Positions 1,275 to 42,132 of a stretch of DNA of 64,000 bases are shown here, piece after piece. Origin of the DNA: an uncultured SAR86 cluster bacterium (GTDB lineage: Bacteria > Pseudomonadota > Gammaproteobacteria > Magnimaribacterales > AG-339-G14); the NCBI GenBank assembly GCA_902632605.1, contig CACPDB010000001.1, positions 137,090-201,089 on the forward strand, read 5' to 3'. The position numbers and the translations under genes are program-made. A model generated the notes under the pieces. That model saw only the letters and a list, made by a program, of their open reading frames with translations. It searched no databases and was not told the DNA's origin. Position 1 is the stretch's first letter, and each line of letters opens with the position of its first letter.

Positions 1275-2474
1275 ATGAGTAAAGATTGGACAAAAATAAG
1301 AGCAAAAGTAAAAGATTTCATTGAAAGTGAAATTTATCCTAAAGAAACTGAGTTAGCTAAGGGTACTCCCGAGGCACGAGAAATGCTTGGTTCGTTAATG
1401 CAGTTGGCAAAGGACGAAAAAATCTGGGCACTAGGACACCCAGAAGATATCGGTGGAGGTGGAATGCCTTTTATGGAATATGTATATGTAAACGAGGTCA
1501 TTGGCAGATCTTCTTTTGCAATGGTGGCACTGGGCACACATTCTCTACAAGATTCAATAATGCTTCGAGAATTTGCTTCTCCACATTGGCGCGATCAATA
1601 TCTCGAACCATTAGTTCAAGGAGAAATCTTTCCAAGTTTTGGTATGACTGAGCCTGATGTTGCAAGTTCTGATCCTACCCAATTACAAACCACAGCTATC
1701 CTCGATAACGGTACTTGGAAAATAAATGGCACAAAATGGTTTACCACTGGAGCTGCTAGAGCCGCCTACACTACAGTGATGTGTCGAACTGAATTGGATG
1801 CTCCCAGTCATGGCGCTTTCAGTATGATCATTGTGCCAACAGATAACCCGGGTTATAAAATTGTAAGAGAAACTCCTGTCCTTGGCATAAATGGCGGGCA
1901 CTACGAAGTTAAATACGACAACGTCGAAGTTCCTGAAGAAAATTTATTAGGTCCAAGAGGGCAAGGATTCATCATTGCACAAAAACGACTTGGGCCTGGA
2001 AGAATTTTTCATTGCATGCGTTGGTTAGGTCAAGCTCAAAGAGCTTTTGATCTGCTTTGTGAAAGAATGCATGAGAGAGAAACTTTTGGGACACCACTTA
2101 CGAAAAAACAATTGCTGCAAAAATTTGTTTTTGATAGTGCTTGTGAAATTCAAGCTTCTCGTCATTTGACCCTTGATGCTGCAAAAAGAATTGACCAGGG
2201 AGATGATGCAAGAATTGAAATTGGTTTGATTAAAGTGGTTGGGGCAGAGATGCTACACAATGTCATAGATCGAGCCATCCAAGTTCATGGCGCGAAAGGA
2301 CTCACTGACGATACGCCATTAAGTTTGATGTATCGACATGCTAGAGAAGCAAGAATCTACGATGGTCCTGATGAAGTTCACGTGCAATCCGTTGCTAGAC
2401 GTATTCTTAAGAACTACGAAAATAATGGTCCTGGATGGGACTTTGGTGAGCGAGACGCATCCTTAGTATCTTAA
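1275..2474 (+). CDS. Acyl-CoA dehydrogenase (LvaC/ACAD10-11-like)
   Basis: MTEPDVASSD, NGTKWF, RLGPGRIFHCMR, QVHGAKG, IYDGPDEVH. ATG at 1275 lies just after the lysS stop and is preferred to the track start at 1167. Confidence 0.9.
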   Translation: MSKDWTKIRAKVKDFIESEIYPKETELAKGTPEAREMLGSLMQLAKDEKIWALGHPEDIGGGGMPFMEYVYVNEVIGRSSFAMVALGTHSLQDSIMLREFASPHWRDQYLEPLVQGEIFPSFGMTEPDVASSDPTQLQTTAILDNGTWKINGTKWFTTGAARAAYTTVMCRTELDAPSHGAFSMIIVPTDNPGYKIVRETPVLGINGGHYEVKYDNVEVPEENLLGPRGQGFIIAQKRLGPGRIFHCMRWLGQAQRAFDLLCERMHERETFGTPLTKKQLLQKFVFDSACEIQASRHLTLDAAKRIDQGDDARIEIGLIKVVGAEMLHNVIDRAIQVHGAKGLTDDTPLSLMYRHAREARIYDGPDEVHVQSVARRILKNYENNGPGWDFGERDASLVS

Positions 2475-2475
2475 G

Positions 2476-3438
2476 ATGTCAGTCTTTCAGGAATTTCTAG
2501 AAAATTCTCTGCAGCAAAAAATTAAGCAACTGGTTCCTCTCACAGGCGGAGCATCTGCAGACATCAATCGTATTATTTTTGCTAATGAAGATGAACTGAT
2601 TGTTAGAAGAACTTTGTCACAAGAAAAATCCGTGATGGCAATTCCAAAAATCTTAGAAGCAAAAATACAAAAAGTTGTTAAAAAAAATGGAGCTCCTGTA
2701 CCAGCAATAATATTTGAGTTTTCTGAAGGCGAAGAAATAGGTGAAGGATATGTCATGGAAGCAATCCCAGGAGAGACTATTCCTCGTAAAATTCTTAGAG
2801 ATGAAAAATTTGCAACTGCTCGAGAAAAACTTCCTTTTGAAATCGGTAAGTCCTTAGCCAAAATACACCGAACACAATTAGACGATTTAAAAGCTCTTGA
2901 CCAAGTGACCTTTTCAGATTCTCTAGAAAAACTTTTTCAGGTATATCTTAGTTTCAATCAACCACAACCGGTCTTTGATTTGGCTTTCAAATGGCTGGAA
3001 GCCCAAAAGCTTACAGAATATGGCGATGTTTTGGTGCATGGCGATTTTCGCTTTGGTAACTTTATTATTTCTGAAGAAAATTTAGAATCAATTATTGACT
3101 GGGAGTTAGCGCACATTGGCAACCCTATGGAAGATCTGGGATGGCTTTGCGTACGTTCCTGGCGATTTGGTAATGTTGAAAAAAGAGTAGGCGGCCTGGG
3201 AGATATCAAAGATCTTATCGCTGGTTATGAATCTAATTCTGATATAAAAATTGACGAATCACAGCTTGATGTATGGCAGCTTTATGGTTCATTACGATGG
3301 GGAGTTATTTGTATGATGCAAACTTTTGCTCATCTGAGTGGAATGGTAAATTCAGTAGAAAAAGCAGCAATAGGCAGAAGAGTATCCGAAACGGAATTTG
3401 ATTTAATGAATATGATCAAACATAAAAATTTCTTATGA
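2476..3438 (+). CDS. APH-family phosphotransferase (LvaA-like acyl-CoA kinase)
   Basis: LVHGDFRFGN and IDWELAHIGNPMEDLGW motifs. Lies 1 bp after the ACAD stop. Confidence 0.88.
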   Translation: MSVFQEFLENSLQQKIKQLVPLTGGASADINRIIFANEDELIVRRTLSQEKSVMAIPKILEAKIQKVVKKNGAPVPAIIFEFSEGEEIGEGYVMEAIPGETIPRKILRDEKFATAREKLPFEIGKSLAKIHRTQLDDLKALDQVTFSDSLEKLFQVYLSFNQPQPVFDLAFKWLEAQKLTEYGDVLVHGDFRFGNFIISEENLESIIDWELAHIGNPMEDLGWLCVRSWRFGNVEKRVGGLGDIKDLIAGYESNSDIKIDESQLDVWQLYGSLRWGVICMMQTFAHLSGMVNSVEKAAIGRRVSETEFDLMNMIKHKNFL

Positions 3439-38503: not shown

Positions 38504-39403
38504 ATGCAAATAAATTTTATGAAGCCAAGAAAGATAGCATCAGTACTATCCATTATTCTTATCTTGATTTCTATTTTTTCACTTGCGTTTAGAGGTTTGA
38601 ATGCGGGTTTAGATTTTACCGGTGGGACACTGATTGAAATAAGATTATCTGAGCCGACAAATTTAGAAGATATGAGAGAAGTTTTAGGTTCTAAAATGGA
38701 TGAAGATTTTCAAGTTTCATATTTTGGTTCTGAACAAGATGTGATCATAAAAATTCCTGGAGGATCAGAAAATAATCTTTCAAATGAAATTATCTCTTCA
38801 CTTAATGAAGTATTCACATTTGATCTTAGACGAAAGGATTTTATTGGTCCGCAAATTGGAGAAGAGCTTAGAGATCAAGGTGGCTTGGGTATTTTAGCTG
38901 CTATGTTGGTAATGATGGTCTACATCATGTTTAGATTTCAATTCAAGTTTGCCATCGGCGCTCTCTTGGCTCTCGTTCATGATGTTTTAATAGTATTGGG
39001 CTTTTTCTCAATTTTTTATATCGGTTTTAACTTGACGGTACTAGCAGCCGTATTGGCAGTTATCGGTTATTCCCTTAATGACACAATAGTAGTTTCAGAC
39101 CGAATTAGAGAGAATTATCGTAAGAAGAGAAAATCAGACAATGTAGATGTCATCAACAGATCTCTAAATCAGATGTTAGGAAGAACTTTAATTACATCTT
39201 TAACTACTTTGTTGGTTTTATTTGCACTGCTAGTTTTAGGCGGTGATTTCATTCAGAATTTTGCAATTGCTTTGATATGCGGTGTCATTGTAGGTACTTA
39301 TTCATCAATTTACGTTCTTTGTAATAATTTAATTTTTATGAATTTAAATTTTGAAGATCTAGCTATCAAAAAGAGCGAAACTTACGATGACGGCATGCCT
39401 TAA
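38504..39403 (+). CDS. secF: Protein translocase subunit SecF
   Basis: GLDFTGG, HDV, GYSLNDTIVV.DRIRE, GTYSS. Confidence 0.96.
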   Translation: MQINFMKPRKIASVLSIILILISIFSLAFRGLNAGLDFTGGTLIEIRLSEPTNLEDMREVLGSKMDEDFQVSYFGSEQDVIIKIPGGSENNLSNEIISSLNEVFTFDLRRKDFIGPQIGEELRDQGGLGILAAMLVMMVYIMFRFQFKFAIGALLALVHDVLIVLGFFSIFYIGFNLTVLAAVLAVIGYSLNDTIVVSDRIRENYRKKRKSDNVDVINRSLNQMLGRTLITSLTTLLVLFALLVLGGDFIQNFAIALICGVIVGTYSSIYVLCNNLIFMNLNFEDLAIKKSETYDDGMP

Positions 39404-39435
39404 AAAAAAGGGAGGTTCGAAGACCTCCCTTTTTT
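39403..39435. terminator. Bidirectional intrinsic terminator
   Basis: A-tract, GGGAGGT-tcgaag-ACCTCCC, T-tract. Shared by secF and the minus-strand peptide cassette. Confidence 0.9.
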
Positions 39436-39438
39436 GTT

Positions 39439-39531
39439 CTAAAACAAAAATAAAATCAATACAGTAGAGATTAAGAATAATCCAATTACTGCGTCGATTT
39501 TACCAAGCTTTTGATGTCTTACTTTATACAT
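39439..39531 (-). CDS. 30-aa single-TM microprotein (not in ORF track)
   Basis: MYKVRHQKLGKIDAVIGLFLISTVLILFLF*. ATG overlaps the end of the YRG peptide and the stop abuts the terminator. Confidence 0.55.
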   Translation of the reverse strand: MYKVRHQKLGKIDAVIGLFLISTVLILFLF

Positions 39532-39691
39532 CTCTAACACCGCGATACCATTTAGGATAAACAGTAGTAGATTTCTTTTTGTTTTCAGACACTATAGCAT
39601 CATGTCTTATTCCACGGTAAATGCCAGAAGAAATAACTTTTTGTTCCTTCGCAACATTTTGTGGAGTTTGTTTGATACCTCTGTAGTACAT
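39524..39691 (-). CDS. 55-aa basic YRG-repeat peptide (DUF4278-like; not in ORF track)
   Basis: GGAGG RBS. MYYRGIKQTPQNVAKEQKVISSGIYRGIRHDAIVSENKKKSTTVYPKWYRGVRDV*, with three YRG[IV] motifs, downstream of a glutamine riboswitch. Confidence 0.85.
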   Translation of the reverse strand: MYYRGIKQTPQNVAKEQKVISSGIYRGIRHDAIVSENKKKSTTVYPKWYRGVRDV

Positions 39692-39755
39692 CGGTTTGAC
39701 CTCCAGTTTTCGTTTCGATTTCGTACATACGCTTCCCAGCGTACACCCTTCTCAA

Positions 39756-39884
39756 CGCGTTCCTTCAGTAAAACTTTCGGTCTCGTTCCCCTTACGGGTA
39801 CTTGCTTACCTATCTTTTAGATAGAGGTTTTCAGGTTTTCCTACTTCCGTTCAATGCACTAAAAAAGTGCATTGAATGAACGAT
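39756..39884 (-). promoter_or_regulatory. Glutamine-I riboswitch (glnA RNA motif) with expanded P3
   Basis: AUCGUUCA-[P2 UUCAAUGCAC/GUGCAUUGAA]-CGGAAGUAG-[P3]-CUGAAGGAACGCG. All conserved glnA-motif blocks are present in order. Confidence 0.85.
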
Positions 39885-39892
39885 TTAAGTGC

Positions 39893-39922
39893 ATTTTATC
39901 AAAAATAATAAAGGACTGTAAA
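39893..39922 (-). promoter_or_regulatory. Sigma70 promoter for the riboswitch cassette
   Basis: TTTACA, about 18 bp spacer, extended -10 TGaTAAAAT. Predicted start falls at the riboswitch 5' end. Confidence 0.6.
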
Positions 39923-39927
39923 CTTTT

Positions 39928-40719
39928 TTAAATAAAAGATTTTTTTATCTCTTTGTTTATGGCTTTAACACATGACATGTTGCCAGCAACAATATTATGG
40001 GACAGTAATACGTTTTCTTCACCATTAAAATCATTGACGAAGCCTCCAGCTTCCATTACCAACAATGCACCTGCAGCAAAGTCCCACACTTTCATACCAT
40101 ATCCTAAAAATGCATCTAACTTTCCCGAAGCCACAAAAGCCAAATCTAATGCTGTTGATCCAGTTCTTCTTAAAGTCAAAGAGTTTGAATAAAGATTTCT
40201 TATTAAAGTAAGTTGATCAAATTTTGGTTCAAGATTGGGACCGCCATGAAAAGAATTACATATCAATGAGTTTTTTAAACCTTTTATTTCTGAAACTCTT
40301 ATGCGAGTTTTATTCAGAAAAGCTCCTTTTCCTTTTGAAGCATAATATTCATCATCTCTTGAAAGATCGTATATTAATCCATGTTCTATTGAGCCTTTAT
40401 GGAAACAAGCAATTGAAATTGAGTAAAAGGGAAAATCATGAATGAAGTTTGTGGTTCCATCCAAAGGATCGATAACCCAATGATAATCAGCATTCTGATT
40501 ACCCTGGCGACCAGACTCCTCTCCCTCAAAAGAATGATCAGGAAAAGATGTCTTTAAGGTATCGATGATTATGTTCTCTGCAATACTATCAACTTGGGTA
40601 ACAAAATCAGTTGGTCCTTTTTCAAAAACATTAATTTTGTCTCTACGGCGAGAAAATTTATGAATTTCCTTTGCTGCAAGTCTTGCGGCGTTAATAGCAA
40701 TAGTAACTTTTGGTTCCAT
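39928..40719 (-). CDS. suhB: Inositol monophosphatase / Nus factor SuhB
   Basis: DFVTQVD, GEE, WVIDPLDGTTNF, RRTGS.ALD, WDFAAG. Confidence 0.93.
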   Translation of the reverse strand: MEPKVTIAINAARLAAKEIHKFSRRRDKINVFEKGPTDFVTQVDSIAENIIIDTLKTSFPDHSFEGEESGRQGNQNADYHWVIDPLDGTTNFIHDFPFYSISIACFHKGSIEHGLIYDLSRDDEYYASKGKGAFLNKTRIRVSEIKGLKNSLICNSFHGGPNLEPKFDQLTLIRNLYSNSLTLRRTGSTALDLAFVASGKLDAFLGYGMKVWDFAAGALLVMEAGGFVNDFNGEENVLLSHNIVAGNMSCVKAINKEIKKSFI

Positions 40720-41775: not shown

Positions 41776-42132
41776 ATGAAACTTTTAACAATAATAATAA
41801 AGCCTTCCAGATCTGATGGAGTTAGGCGGGCTTTATCAACCATTGGTACTGGTGGAGCTACTATAATTTCTGCTCAAGGTTTTGGGACTCAAAAAGGGCA
41901 TTCCGAAACTTACCGTGGAGCTAGTTATGAAGTAGATACAAAACCTAAAACGATGTTCCAAGTAGCTTGCAAAGACGATGACGTCGAAAACATCATTCAA
42001 GCCGTGCGAGAAGTCGCTAATACCGGCGAGATTGGTGATGGCAAGATTTTTGTAACAGAACTTAACGATGTTGTTCGCATCAGGACAGGTGAAACTGGTG
42101 AGGACGCTATAAAGGAGAATAGCAATGAGTGA
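41776..42132 (+). CDS. glnK: PII nitrogen regulatory protein GlnK
   Basis: GFG.QKGH.E.YRGA.Y T-loop, TGEIGDGKIFV, RIRTGE. Overlaps the amtB start. Confidence 0.93.
   Translation: MKLLTIIIKPSRSDGVRRALSTIGTGGATIISAQGFGTQKGHSETYRGASYEVDTKPKTMFQVACKDDDVENIIQAVREVANTGEIGDGKIFVTELNDVVRIRTGETGEDAIKENSNE

What the first reader, a model, noticed from the sequence alone, without database searches (positions are those of the whole stretch)
39439..39922. Hidden nitrogen-control cassette: glutamine riboswitch driving a triple-YRG peptide and a membrane microprotein in a heterotrophic gammaproteobacterium
Seen: the secF-suhB gap holds a complete minus-strand unit missed by the ORF track. It has a promoter, a glnA-motif riboswitch, a GGAGG RBS, a 55-aa basic peptide with three YRG[IV] repeats, an overlapping 30-aa TM ORF and a terminator. 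Known: glutamine-I riboswitches are best characterised in cyanobacteria, where they switch on gifB (IF17, a glutamine synthetase inactivator), and they associate with DUF4278 YRG peptides. Proteobacteria normally control GS through GlnE/GlnD. Inference: this is a small-protein brake on nitrogen assimilation induced by glutamine excess, placed about 2 kb from glnK-amtB.
Basis: partly seen in the sequence, partly recalled or inferred. Interest (0 to 1): 0.92.

Follow-up and report, generated by a model that had tools for sequence, protein, structure and literature searches.

The report
Glutamine riboswitch driving two microproteins
A glutamine-sensing RNA switch in a small-genome marine bacterium sits in front of two very small protein genes, and closely related copies of the same cassette are carried by marine T4-like phages, which points to an overlooked way of steering nitrogen metabolism.

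Summary
On the minus strand between secF and the suhB-like gene lie a promoter-like site, an Rfam glutamine-riboswitch hit above threshold (42.2 vs 35 bits), a GGAGG site, a 55-aa triple-YRG ORF, an overlapping 30-aa hydrophobic ORF and a strong terminator. The aptamer carries a conserved ~60-nt two-hairpin domain inserted in P3, with covariation support. In a 151-genome sample of the order, 47 genomes have the peptide, each directly 3' of the riboswitch. None of 396 other sampled gammaproteobacteria has it.

The peptide is DUF4278-like but below Pfam's cut-off. It cannot be IF17: it has no room for the IF7-like GS-binding half, and the only GS found is type II. GlnE was found in 0 of 61 related genomes and GlnD in 0 of 37 of this family, so "GS brake" is an untested analogy.

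New here:
- Sister lineages place canonical, often tandem, aptamers directly before GS, gltB and other micro-ORFs.
- The same long-P3 cassette occurs on 48 IMG/VR contigs. All 8 that I examined carry phage-type genes, and 6 carry T4-like structural or late-sigma genes.
- The window's two-ORF allele groups with the phage copies.

Verdict: a new variant of a known kind. The peptide's target is unknown.

The parts
39893..39922 (-). sigma-70-like promoter: -35 TTTACA (39922-39917), TG (39901-39900), -10 TAAAAT (39898-39893); inferred start near 39886
   Evidence: 10/12 matches, TG present. The -10 box is in register in relatives. RNA-library contigs reach up to 39866 and none goes beyond (weak).
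39754..39884 (-). glutamine-I (glnA-motif) aptamer: P1 39882-39878 with 39762-39758; P2 hairpin; CGGAAGUAG junction; extended P3
   Evidence: RF01739 42.2 bits vs 35. Core motifs invariant in 30/30 loci. P2 and P3 covary.
39775..39834 (-). P3 insertion domain: hairpins P3a (39825-39809) and P3b (39798-39788) joined by invariant linkers
   Evidence: Conserved in hosts and phages. Pairs with a change on both sides: P3 5/7, P3a 9/11, P3b 3/3. Absent in one relative, G019/L070.
39692..39753 (-). expression platform: conserved tail, covarying hairpin P4 (39745-39726), invariant A-rich tract, GGAGG (39704-39700)
   Evidence: P4: 6/8 pairs change on both sides. No hairpin plus U-run lies between aptamer and ORF.
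39524..39691 (-). ORF1: 55-aa basic triple-YRG peptide, DUF4278-like
39439..39531 (-). ORF2: 30-aa microprotein with basic N-terminus and hydrophobic C-terminal stretch; its ATG overlaps the ORF1 stop (coupled)
   Evidence: Open in 11/11 host and phage copies. Variable sites by codon position 9/6/19; 12 silent sites against 2 and 2 in the other frames.
39402..39429 (-). intrinsic terminator (7-bp GC-rich stem, 6-nt loop, U8), bidirectional with secF
   Evidence: A comparable terminator hairpin follows ORF1 in the relatives.

Best explanation
This is a glutamine-responsive micro-operon. A constitutive-looking promoter makes a ~480-nt mRNA. Its 5' UTR is a type-I glutamine aptamer whose P3 helix is lengthened and carries a conserved two-hairpin domain. 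No terminator lies between aptamer and ORF, and the Shine-Dalgarno/start region can pair with the 3' half of the aptamer. Control is therefore most likely translational and, as in cyanobacterial gifB, switched ON by glutamine (inferred). The products are a 55-aa basic DUF4278-like peptide with three YRG repeats and, by translational coupling, a 30-aa membrane microprotein. The lineage lacks GlnE and GlnD and has a type-II GS, so the riboswitch is probably its direct glutamine sensor. The peptide is probably an effector that tunes nitrogen assimilation or uptake when glutamine is high, by binding GSII, GlnK or AmtB (inferred; target unknown). The window's two-ORF allele belongs to a group otherwise seen on T4-like phage contigs, so the cassette moves between phage and host.

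Shown: the aptamer, its extra domain, both ORFs under coding constraint, the strict riboswitch-peptide linkage, the missing GlnE/GlnD, and the phage copies.

Inferred: ligand binding, ON logic and protein target.
For: Rfam hit above threshold. The six other long-insert loci tested all passed, as did 10 of 12 viral loci. Structure: 94.6% of cells paired against 38-50% when slid, and 31 of 43 pairs change on both sides (on the MAFFT alignment 92.5% and 20 of 43). Peptide: 30 of 30 loci; 47 of 151 order genomes, the same 47 that hold a strong R1 match directly upstream; 315 database homologs, many flagged PF14105; 18 of 19 family members hit DUF4278 at E<=0.01. ORF2 shows a coding signature. GlnE 0/61; GlnD 0/37 in this family; GS is GlnII-like. 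In sister lineages the same aptamer class sits directly before GS genes in 9 of 61 genomes, and none of those 9 has the peptide. Forcing P1 raises the predicted AUG accessibility by 0.3 or more in 5 of the 12 representatives run. Short contigs in three RNA libraries from three studies cover 39362-39866. Phage copies are shown, and the tree.
Against: No ligand-binding or expression experiment exists. The window peptide scores below Pfam's DUF4278 cut-off (17.8 vs 25.3). The folding test gave no rise or a fall in accessibility in 6 of 12 representatives, including the window's own clade (0.34 to 0.38), and one row was mis-parsed. RNA-library contigs cannot prove transcription or show ends. The complementarity between riboswitch-GS and riboswitch-peptide lineages follows family lines, so it reflects few independent events. 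The phage-host grouping rests on an unrooted tree, and the AU test is borderline (p 0.046) and was set up after the tree was seen.
Confidence: 0.6

Rival explanations
1. The triple-YRG peptide mimics the PII T-loop. Each YRG repeat copies the apex motif of the GlnK T-loop, so one peptide could occupy the three pore exits of trimeric AmtB or compete for other PII partners. This would shut ammonium uptake or PII signalling when glutamine is high, in a lineage that cannot uridylylate GlnK.
For: The window's own GlnK T-loop reads TYRGASY (translation; P-II family). The peptide has three invariant YRG motifs 21-24 residues apart. Some phage copies read YRGVSY. glnK-amtB lie 1.9 kb away. GlnD was not found in 0/37 genomes of the family. 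That the T-loop arginine plugs AmtB is recalled knowledge, not from a call.
Against: The likeness is three residues. Two-repeat forms of about 40 aa exist on phage contigs. No binding test was run for AmtB or GlnK. Families f2 and f3 keep GlnD, yet some of their genomes have the peptide.
Confidence: 0.15
2. The cassette is primarily a phage gene set used during infection, for example to time or reshape host metabolism or membrane state by glutamine level. The chromosomal copy is a captured or exchanged phage allele whose role is not regulation of host GS.
For: 48 viral contigs carry the long-P3 unit, and 0 of 48 has secF or suhB flanks. All 8 loci examined carry phage-type genes: gp23, scaffold, portal, late sigma factor, helicase, PolB/RNR. 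Viral lineages are the deeper and more diverse ones in the tree, and the window's clade nests among them. ORF2 is shared only with phage copies. Glutamine riboswitches in Melnitz-like phages and pelagimyophages are in print (PMC9004378, passages).
Against: 18 host units from 5 genera sampled in the tree form one clade at a syntenic chromosomal site. The unit is kept in 33 of 40 genomes of the family, which argues for a host function. In the same order the aptamer class also controls GS and gltB.
Confidence: 0.15
3. The RNA acts mainly as a non-coding or OFF-switch element, and the small ORFs are not functional proteins.
For: Both ORFs are very short. The complex and fold runs reported a low-confidence fold for the peptide (note).
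Against: The ORF1 frame, length and three YRG motifs are kept at 33-54% identity to the window peptide in the other clades across 30 loci. An SD at proper spacing is invariant. ORF2 shows third-position bias and stays open in 11/11 copies. 315 homologs are in the protein collection.
Confidence: 0.05

Closest known systems
Synechocystis gifB (IF17) type-1 glutamine riboswitch (Klaehn et al. 2018, PMC6212724)
   Same: Same Rfam aptamer class in a 5' UTR, in front of a DUF4278-type ORF. No terminator is involved, so control is presumably translational and ON. The organism lacks GlnD.
   Different: The product here is 55 aa with no IF7-like C-terminal GS-binding half. The host is a heterotrophic gammaproteobacterium with a type-II GS. 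The aptamer has a ~60-nt P3 domain. A second coupled membrane micro-ORF follows.
Prochlorococcus PMM1846/Yfr6-type small DUF4278 proteins behind glutamine-II (Downstream-peptide) riboswitches
   Same: Short DUF4278-only peptides under a glutamine riboswitch in a streamlined marine organism. Their function is likewise unproven (PMC6316151).
   Different: Different aptamer class (RF01704 vs RF01739), different phylum, and no second ORF reported.
Marine-metagenome glnA RNAs, some in tandem, before GS, GOGAT, PII and Amt genes (Weinberg et al. 2010, PMC2864571)
   Same: The same motif and the same gene associations are seen here in sister lineages of the window's order.
   Different: [quoted passage not shown] The long-P3 form and the YRG/TM cassette were not described in the passages I read.
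Glutamine riboswitches of Melnitz-like phages and pelagimyophages (Buchholz et al. 2022, PMC9004378)
   Same: RF01739-type aptamers on T4-like marine phages of streamlined heterotrophs.
   Different: There the riboswitch was tied to ssrA/tmRNA. ARAGORN found no tmRNA in the 10 viral loci scanned, and here the aptamer precedes YRG micro-ORFs. No BLAST match to GenBank phage isolates.

Membership tests
Rfam RF01739 glutamine riboswitch (glnA motif) | Covariance-model score at or above the curated gathering score | tested here: met
   42.2 bits vs 35, full model 1-53. The six other long-insert loci tested scored 38.9-43.4.
Rfam RF01739 glutamine riboswitch (glnA motif) | Conserved core sequences (P1 CGUUC/GAACG, ACGGAAGUAG junction, GAAGGAACGC) | tested here: met
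   Identical to the consensus in the window and invariant in 30/30 loci. P1 is 100% paired in 43 distinct sequences.
Rfam RF01739 glutamine riboswitch (glnA motif) | Three-helix architecture supported by covariation | tested here: met
   P2 has 8/9 and P3 5/7 pairs with changes on both sides. P1 never varies, so it is uninformative.
Rfam RF01739 glutamine riboswitch (glnA motif) | Selective binding of L-glutamine with a structural change | not testable with these tools
   Needs in-line probing or ITC.
Pfam PF14105 DUF4278 | Score at or above Pfam's gathering score | tested here: not met
   Window peptide 17.8 bits vs 25.3, E 0.0043, covering 4-55 of 57. However, 18/19 relatives hit at E<=0.01, best 9e-6, and many database homologs carry a precomputed PF14105 hit. 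It is a distant or borderline member.
IF17 (GifB) glutamine synthetase inactivating factor | C-terminal IF7-like moiety bearing the GS-binding arginines | tested here: not met
   The peptide is 55 aa and wholly covered by the DUF4278 profile. The requirement is taken from PMC6316151.
IF17 (GifB) glutamine synthetase inactivating factor | Acts on a type-I GS of the same organism | tested here: not met
   The only GS found in the 92.6%-complete genome is GlnII-like (NF041605, 353 bits).
Phage-carried auxiliary cassette (T4-like myophages) | Located on contigs with phage hallmark genes and without the host flanks | tested here: met
   Relatives: 0/48 viral loci have secF or suhB. gp23, scaffold, portal, gp55-like sigma factor, helicase and PolB/RNR are seen in the 8 loci examined. 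The window copy itself is chromosomal, between secF and suhB.

The most novel reading that the evidence does not exclude
A streamlined marine gammaproteobacterial lineage lost GlnE and GlnD, and a glutamine riboswitch now serves as its glutamine sensor. The output is a triple-YRG peptide that mimics the PII T-loop, with one repeat per subunit of a trimeric target such as AmtB or a PII partner, plus a coupled membrane microprotein. T4-like phages carry and exchange the same cassette to seize control of host nitrogen uptake during infection.
Probability: 0.15. Interest if true: 0.9.

Novelty: new variant of a known kind. Interest (0 to 1): 0.7.

Why it matters
In the passages I read, glutamine riboswitches and DUF4278 peptides are treated as a cyanobacterial matter, with 'marine metagenome' copies of unknown owner.

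What this work adds:
- It assigns many of those copies to an order of very small-genome marine gammaproteobacteria and to T4-like phages.
- The two families of that order that lack both GlnE and GlnD in the genomes sampled have glutamine riboswitches in front of GS or of the peptide.
- It describes an aptamer with an added, covarying P3 domain.

It also makes testable whether small DUF4278 peptides act on GSII, PII or AmtB. That question is still open even for Prochlorococcus. The shared cassette may also help link uncultured phages to hosts.

Tried and rejected
- Complex prediction with two copies of GSII plus the peptide returned 'no answer' (score 0.00). It counts neither for nor against binding.
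- The genome search with RF01739 missed the window's own aptamer, so I built model R1.
- RNAalifold on the raw alignment gave a poor aptamer fold. I replaced it with a hand-set structure and tested that.
- The genome contigs pattern scan returned only 4 records, with uninformative names. The listing of cluster members gave only 'Gammaproteobacteria/Pseudomonadota bacterium'. The SAR86 label is therefore my inference and is not shown.
- PDB sequence search found nothing credible. The 'longer' protein search found no named IF17. The ESM Atlas gave only DUF4278 leads at 0.84-0.87.
- BLAST against GenBank phage isolates found no match for the unit, the peptide or a viral copy. A tandem aptamer query gave only chance-level hits.
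- No tmRNA was found in the 10 viral loci scanned.
- Read laying: run X1 laid nothing, and no contig covers 39867-40000. No conclusion is drawn from the uncovered part.
- The alternative helix between the P1 5' strand and GAACGA inside the insert is not required, since G019 lacks the insert. I keep it only as a possibility.
- Supplements were closed. Klaehn 2018 Tables S1/S2 and Fig. S3, Weinberg 2010 Additional file 1 and PMC12379486 Table S5 could bear on what is already listed. Ames & Breaker 2011 was not held.
- 'Not in print' claims rest on searches only.

Full report
**What is there.** The unit lies on the minus strand, between secF (38504-39403, +) and an inositol-monophosphatase/suhB-like gene (39928-40719, -). 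In order, the sequence shows:
- a promoter-like site, TTTACA-18-TAAAAT preceded by TG (39922-39893);
- a full-length match to Rfam RF01739, the glutamine riboswitch aptamer, at 39884-39754 (42.2 bits against a gathering score of 35);
- GGAGG at 39704-39700, 8 nt before an ATG;
- a 55-aa ORF (39691-39524) with YRG at residues 3-5, 25-27 and 49-51;
- a second ORF whose ATG (39531) overlaps the first stop and which encodes 30 residues ending in a hydrophobic stretch;
- a GC-rich hairpin with a U8 tail (39429-39402; -23 kcal/mol, z -4.8).

The Rfam alignment places 69 extra nucleotides in the loop of P3.

**Conservation.**
- A DNA search of 60 relatives found the unit in 34 of 36 genomes of the same family and in a few genomes of three sister families.
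- All 30 fetched loci carry the three core motifs, with 75-95 nt between the last two. All 30 also carry a 52-55-aa triple-YRG ORF followed by a terminator.
- Nine residues are invariant: the three YRG motifs. The rest of the peptide drops to 33-54% identity.
- The RNA keeps invariant blocks of 10-15 nt, so it is under stronger constraint than the protein.

**RNA structure.** I set a six-helix structure by eye: P1, P2, a lengthened P3, two hairpins P3a and P3b inside P3, and a hairpin P4 after the aptamer.
- On the MAFFT alignment of 30 loci, 92.5% of cells pair, against 38-54% when the partners are slid. Twenty of 43 pairs change on both sides.
- I built a covariance model from this structure (R1) and aligned 48 host, metagenome and viral copies to it. 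That gives 94.6% paired and 31 of 43 pairs with changes on both sides: P2 8/9, P3 5/7, P3a 9/11, P3b 3/3, P4 6/8. P1 never varies. This second alignment is fitted to the model and leans towards it.
- One relative (G019) has the same unit with the long P3 stem capped by 5 nt instead of the two-hairpin domain. The domain is therefore an add-on, not part of the ligand core.
- No other Rfam family matches it credibly.

**Likely switch logic.** No hairpin with a U-run lies between aptamer and ORF, so translational control is the simplest reading.
- In most clades the 3' strand of P3 (UAUCU) can pair either with its 5' partner or with GAUAU at the start codon.
- In the window's clade P3 is AAAAC/GUUUU and the start region has changed accordingly.
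- Forcing P1 raised the predicted AUG accessibility by 0.3 or more in 5 of the 12 representatives run. It did not in the window's clade (0.34 to 0.38). One row was mis-parsed.
- For Synechocystis gifB, the authors postulate that glutamine binding melts an inhibitory pairing with the ribosome-binding site (PMC6212724, passages).
- I therefore favour an ON switch. This is inference only.

**The peptides.**
- ORF1 hits Pfam DUF4278 over nearly its whole length but below the cut-off (17.8 vs 25.3 bits, E 0.0043).
- 18 of 19 family members hit DUF4278 at E<=0.01.
- A profile search found 315 proteins of 28-97 aa, mostly from marine metagenomes. Many of them carry a precomputed PF14105 hit.
- ORF2 is absent from most host clades. 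It is present in the five genomes closest to the window and in 7 of 37 complete viral units.
- Across 11 copies, ORF2 is always open, while the other two frames hold 2-4 stops.
- Its variable sites fall 9/6/19 by codon position. Twelve are silent, against 2 and 2 in the other frames.
- I take ORF2 as a real, coupled gene.

**Nitrogen-control background.**
- The 1.22-Mb genome (92.6% complete, 34% G+C) has no GlnE or GlnD match.
- GlnE was found in 0 of 61 genomes of the order sample.
- GlnD was found in 0 of 37 genomes of the window's family and 0 of 8 of family f4. It was found in 8 of 8 and 7 of 8 genomes of families f2 and f3.
- The only GS is GlnII-like (NF041605, 353 bits) and sits next to an NtrB-like kinase. 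GlnII-like GS occurs in 58 of 61 relatives.
- IF17's GS-binding residues lie in its IF7-like C-terminal half, and its DUF4278 N-terminus is reported as dispensable for inactivation (PMC6316151, passages). The peptide is therefore not an IF17, and 'GS brake' is an analogy.
- A complex prediction with GSII gave no answer (see Tried and rejected).

**The order-wide picture.**
- In a 151-genome sample of the order, 47 genomes have the peptide: f1 33/40, f2 10/40, f3 3/40, f4 0/30.
- These are exactly the 47 genomes with a strong R1 match directly upstream.
- Canonical short-P3 aptamers reach E<=0.001 in 81 of 151 genomes (64 over the cut-off). They are often in tandem.
- These canonical aptamers sit before several kinds of gene:
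  - the same YRG peptide in family f3 (L066, L067);
  - a different 46-aa basic peptide in genus g10 (L068, L071-L073);
  - a 45-aa basic peptide (L104);
  - a gltB-like gene (L069);
  - a porin-like ORF (L101).
- Canonical aptamers also lie directly before the GS gene in 9 of 61 genomes: 8 of 8 of family f4 and 1 of 8 of f3. This comes from comparing the coordinates. None of those nine has the peptide.
- Outside the order, the peptide profile matched 0 of 396 sampled gammaproteobacterial genomes. RF01739 matched 0 of 149 other families.
- Kin are not independent, so these patterns are suggestive only.

**Phage copies.**
- A pattern specific to the long-P3 form found 108 metagenome stretches and 48 IMG/VR contigs.
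- secF or suhB flanks occur in 27 of 108 metagenome loci and in 0 of 48 viral loci.
- Eight viral loci were examined, and all carry phage-type genes:
  - gp23 major head protein (L230, L249, L254);
  - scaffold protein (L230, L260);
  - portal protein (L215);
  - gp55-like late sigma factor (L254, L221);
  - helicase (L253, L254);
  - PolB and ribonucleotide reductase (L219).
- Ten of 12 viral loci pass Rfam's threshold.
- In a maximum-likelihood tree of 55 units, 18 host rows form one clade (98/88). The window with its four closest relatives nests among six viral rows (89/98).
- Holding all hosts together costs 38.3 log-likelihood units (AU p 0.046). That is borderline, and the test was set up after the tree was seen.
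- The window's allele also shares the MYYRG start, the KWYRGVR third repeat and ORF2 with those viral copies.
- Exchange between T4-like phages and this host lineage is likely. Its direction is open.

**Expression.** Short contigs from three marine RNA libraries of three studies cover 39362-39866, and none extends further upstream. This fits a small transcript but does not prove it.

**Literature.**
- I read passages, not whole papers.
- Klaehn 2018 (PMC6212724) states that the aptamers occur only in cyanobacteria and marine metagenome sequences of unknown affiliation.
- Weinberg 2010 (PMC2864571) lists the nitrogen-gene associations and the tandem copies.
- PMC12379486 notes RF01739 hits in SAR86 and Pelagibacter MAGs without analysis.
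- PMC9004378 reports glutamine riboswitches in Melnitz-like phages.
- Searches found no description of the long-P3 form. Nor did they find one of DUF4278-like peptides in gammaproteobacteria or their phages.
- Supplements were closed and may list such hits.

**Verdict.** The riboswitch and peptide reading is supported. The GS-brake mechanism is unproven and, in its IF17 form, excluded. The element is a new structural and taxonomic variant of a known kind, with an unexpected phage dimension.

Noticed in passing
relatives G039, G042, G045, G048, G050, G051, G054, G057, G060 (coordinates; L102): Canonical glutamine aptamers, often in tandem, lie directly upstream of the GS gene (GlnII-like, or a 468-474-aa type-I-like GS). 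This gives an owner to the metagenomic 'aptamer before glnA' cases, whose taxonomic affiliation was stated as unknown in PMC6212724.
   Followed up: partly
L069 (G024:C4), aptamer 2559-2618 (-): A single canonical aptamer (65.7 bits) lies about 30 nt before a long ORF. Its N-terminus looks like glutamate synthase large subunit; this was judged by eye from the sequence, with no family scan.
   Followed up: partly
L068, L071, L072, L073 (genus g10) and L104 (G039): Tandem aptamers precede other conserved basic micro-ORFs of 45-46 aa with no YRG repeats. Their function is unknown.
   Followed up: no
L101 (G039:C4), aptamer at locus 1501-1553 (-): An aptamer is followed by a hairpin with a U-run and then a 198-aa signal-peptide-bearing, porin-like ORF. 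This may be a transcription-termination version of the switch.
   Followed up: no
L070 (G019:C1), 2501-2657 (-): The same peptide unit, but the P3 stem is capped by 5 nt instead of the two-hairpin domain. It is a natural deletion control for the insert.
   Followed up: partly
order sample: GlnD is found in families f2 (8/8) and f3 (7/8) but not in f1 (0/37) or f4 (0/8). GlnE is found in none of 61 genomes.
   Followed up: yes
window 41776-42132 (+): The GlnK T-loop of this genome reads TYRGASY, the same YRG core as the three repeats of the peptide. This is the basis of the T-loop-mimic idea.
   Followed up: no
L035:1144-2190 (G000:C6): The longest GS ORF (349 aa) has a 22-residue N-terminal extension that most relatives lack. 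The likely true start is the internal Met, giving 327 aa.
   Followed up: partly
method note: the genome search with RF01739 does not report the long-P3 aptamers of genus g1 (0/12), although cmscan on the window does. Genome-wide tallies of this family are therefore too low for insert-bearing forms.
   Followed up: yes
L218, L219, L223, L226, L243, L255, L258, L259 (viral contigs): A phage sub-lineage next to PolB and RNR carries a 113-nt-spaced aptamer and a shorter peptide of about 40 aa with two YRG repeats. The two such loci scanned (L219, L243) did not reach Rfam's threshold.
   Followed up: partly
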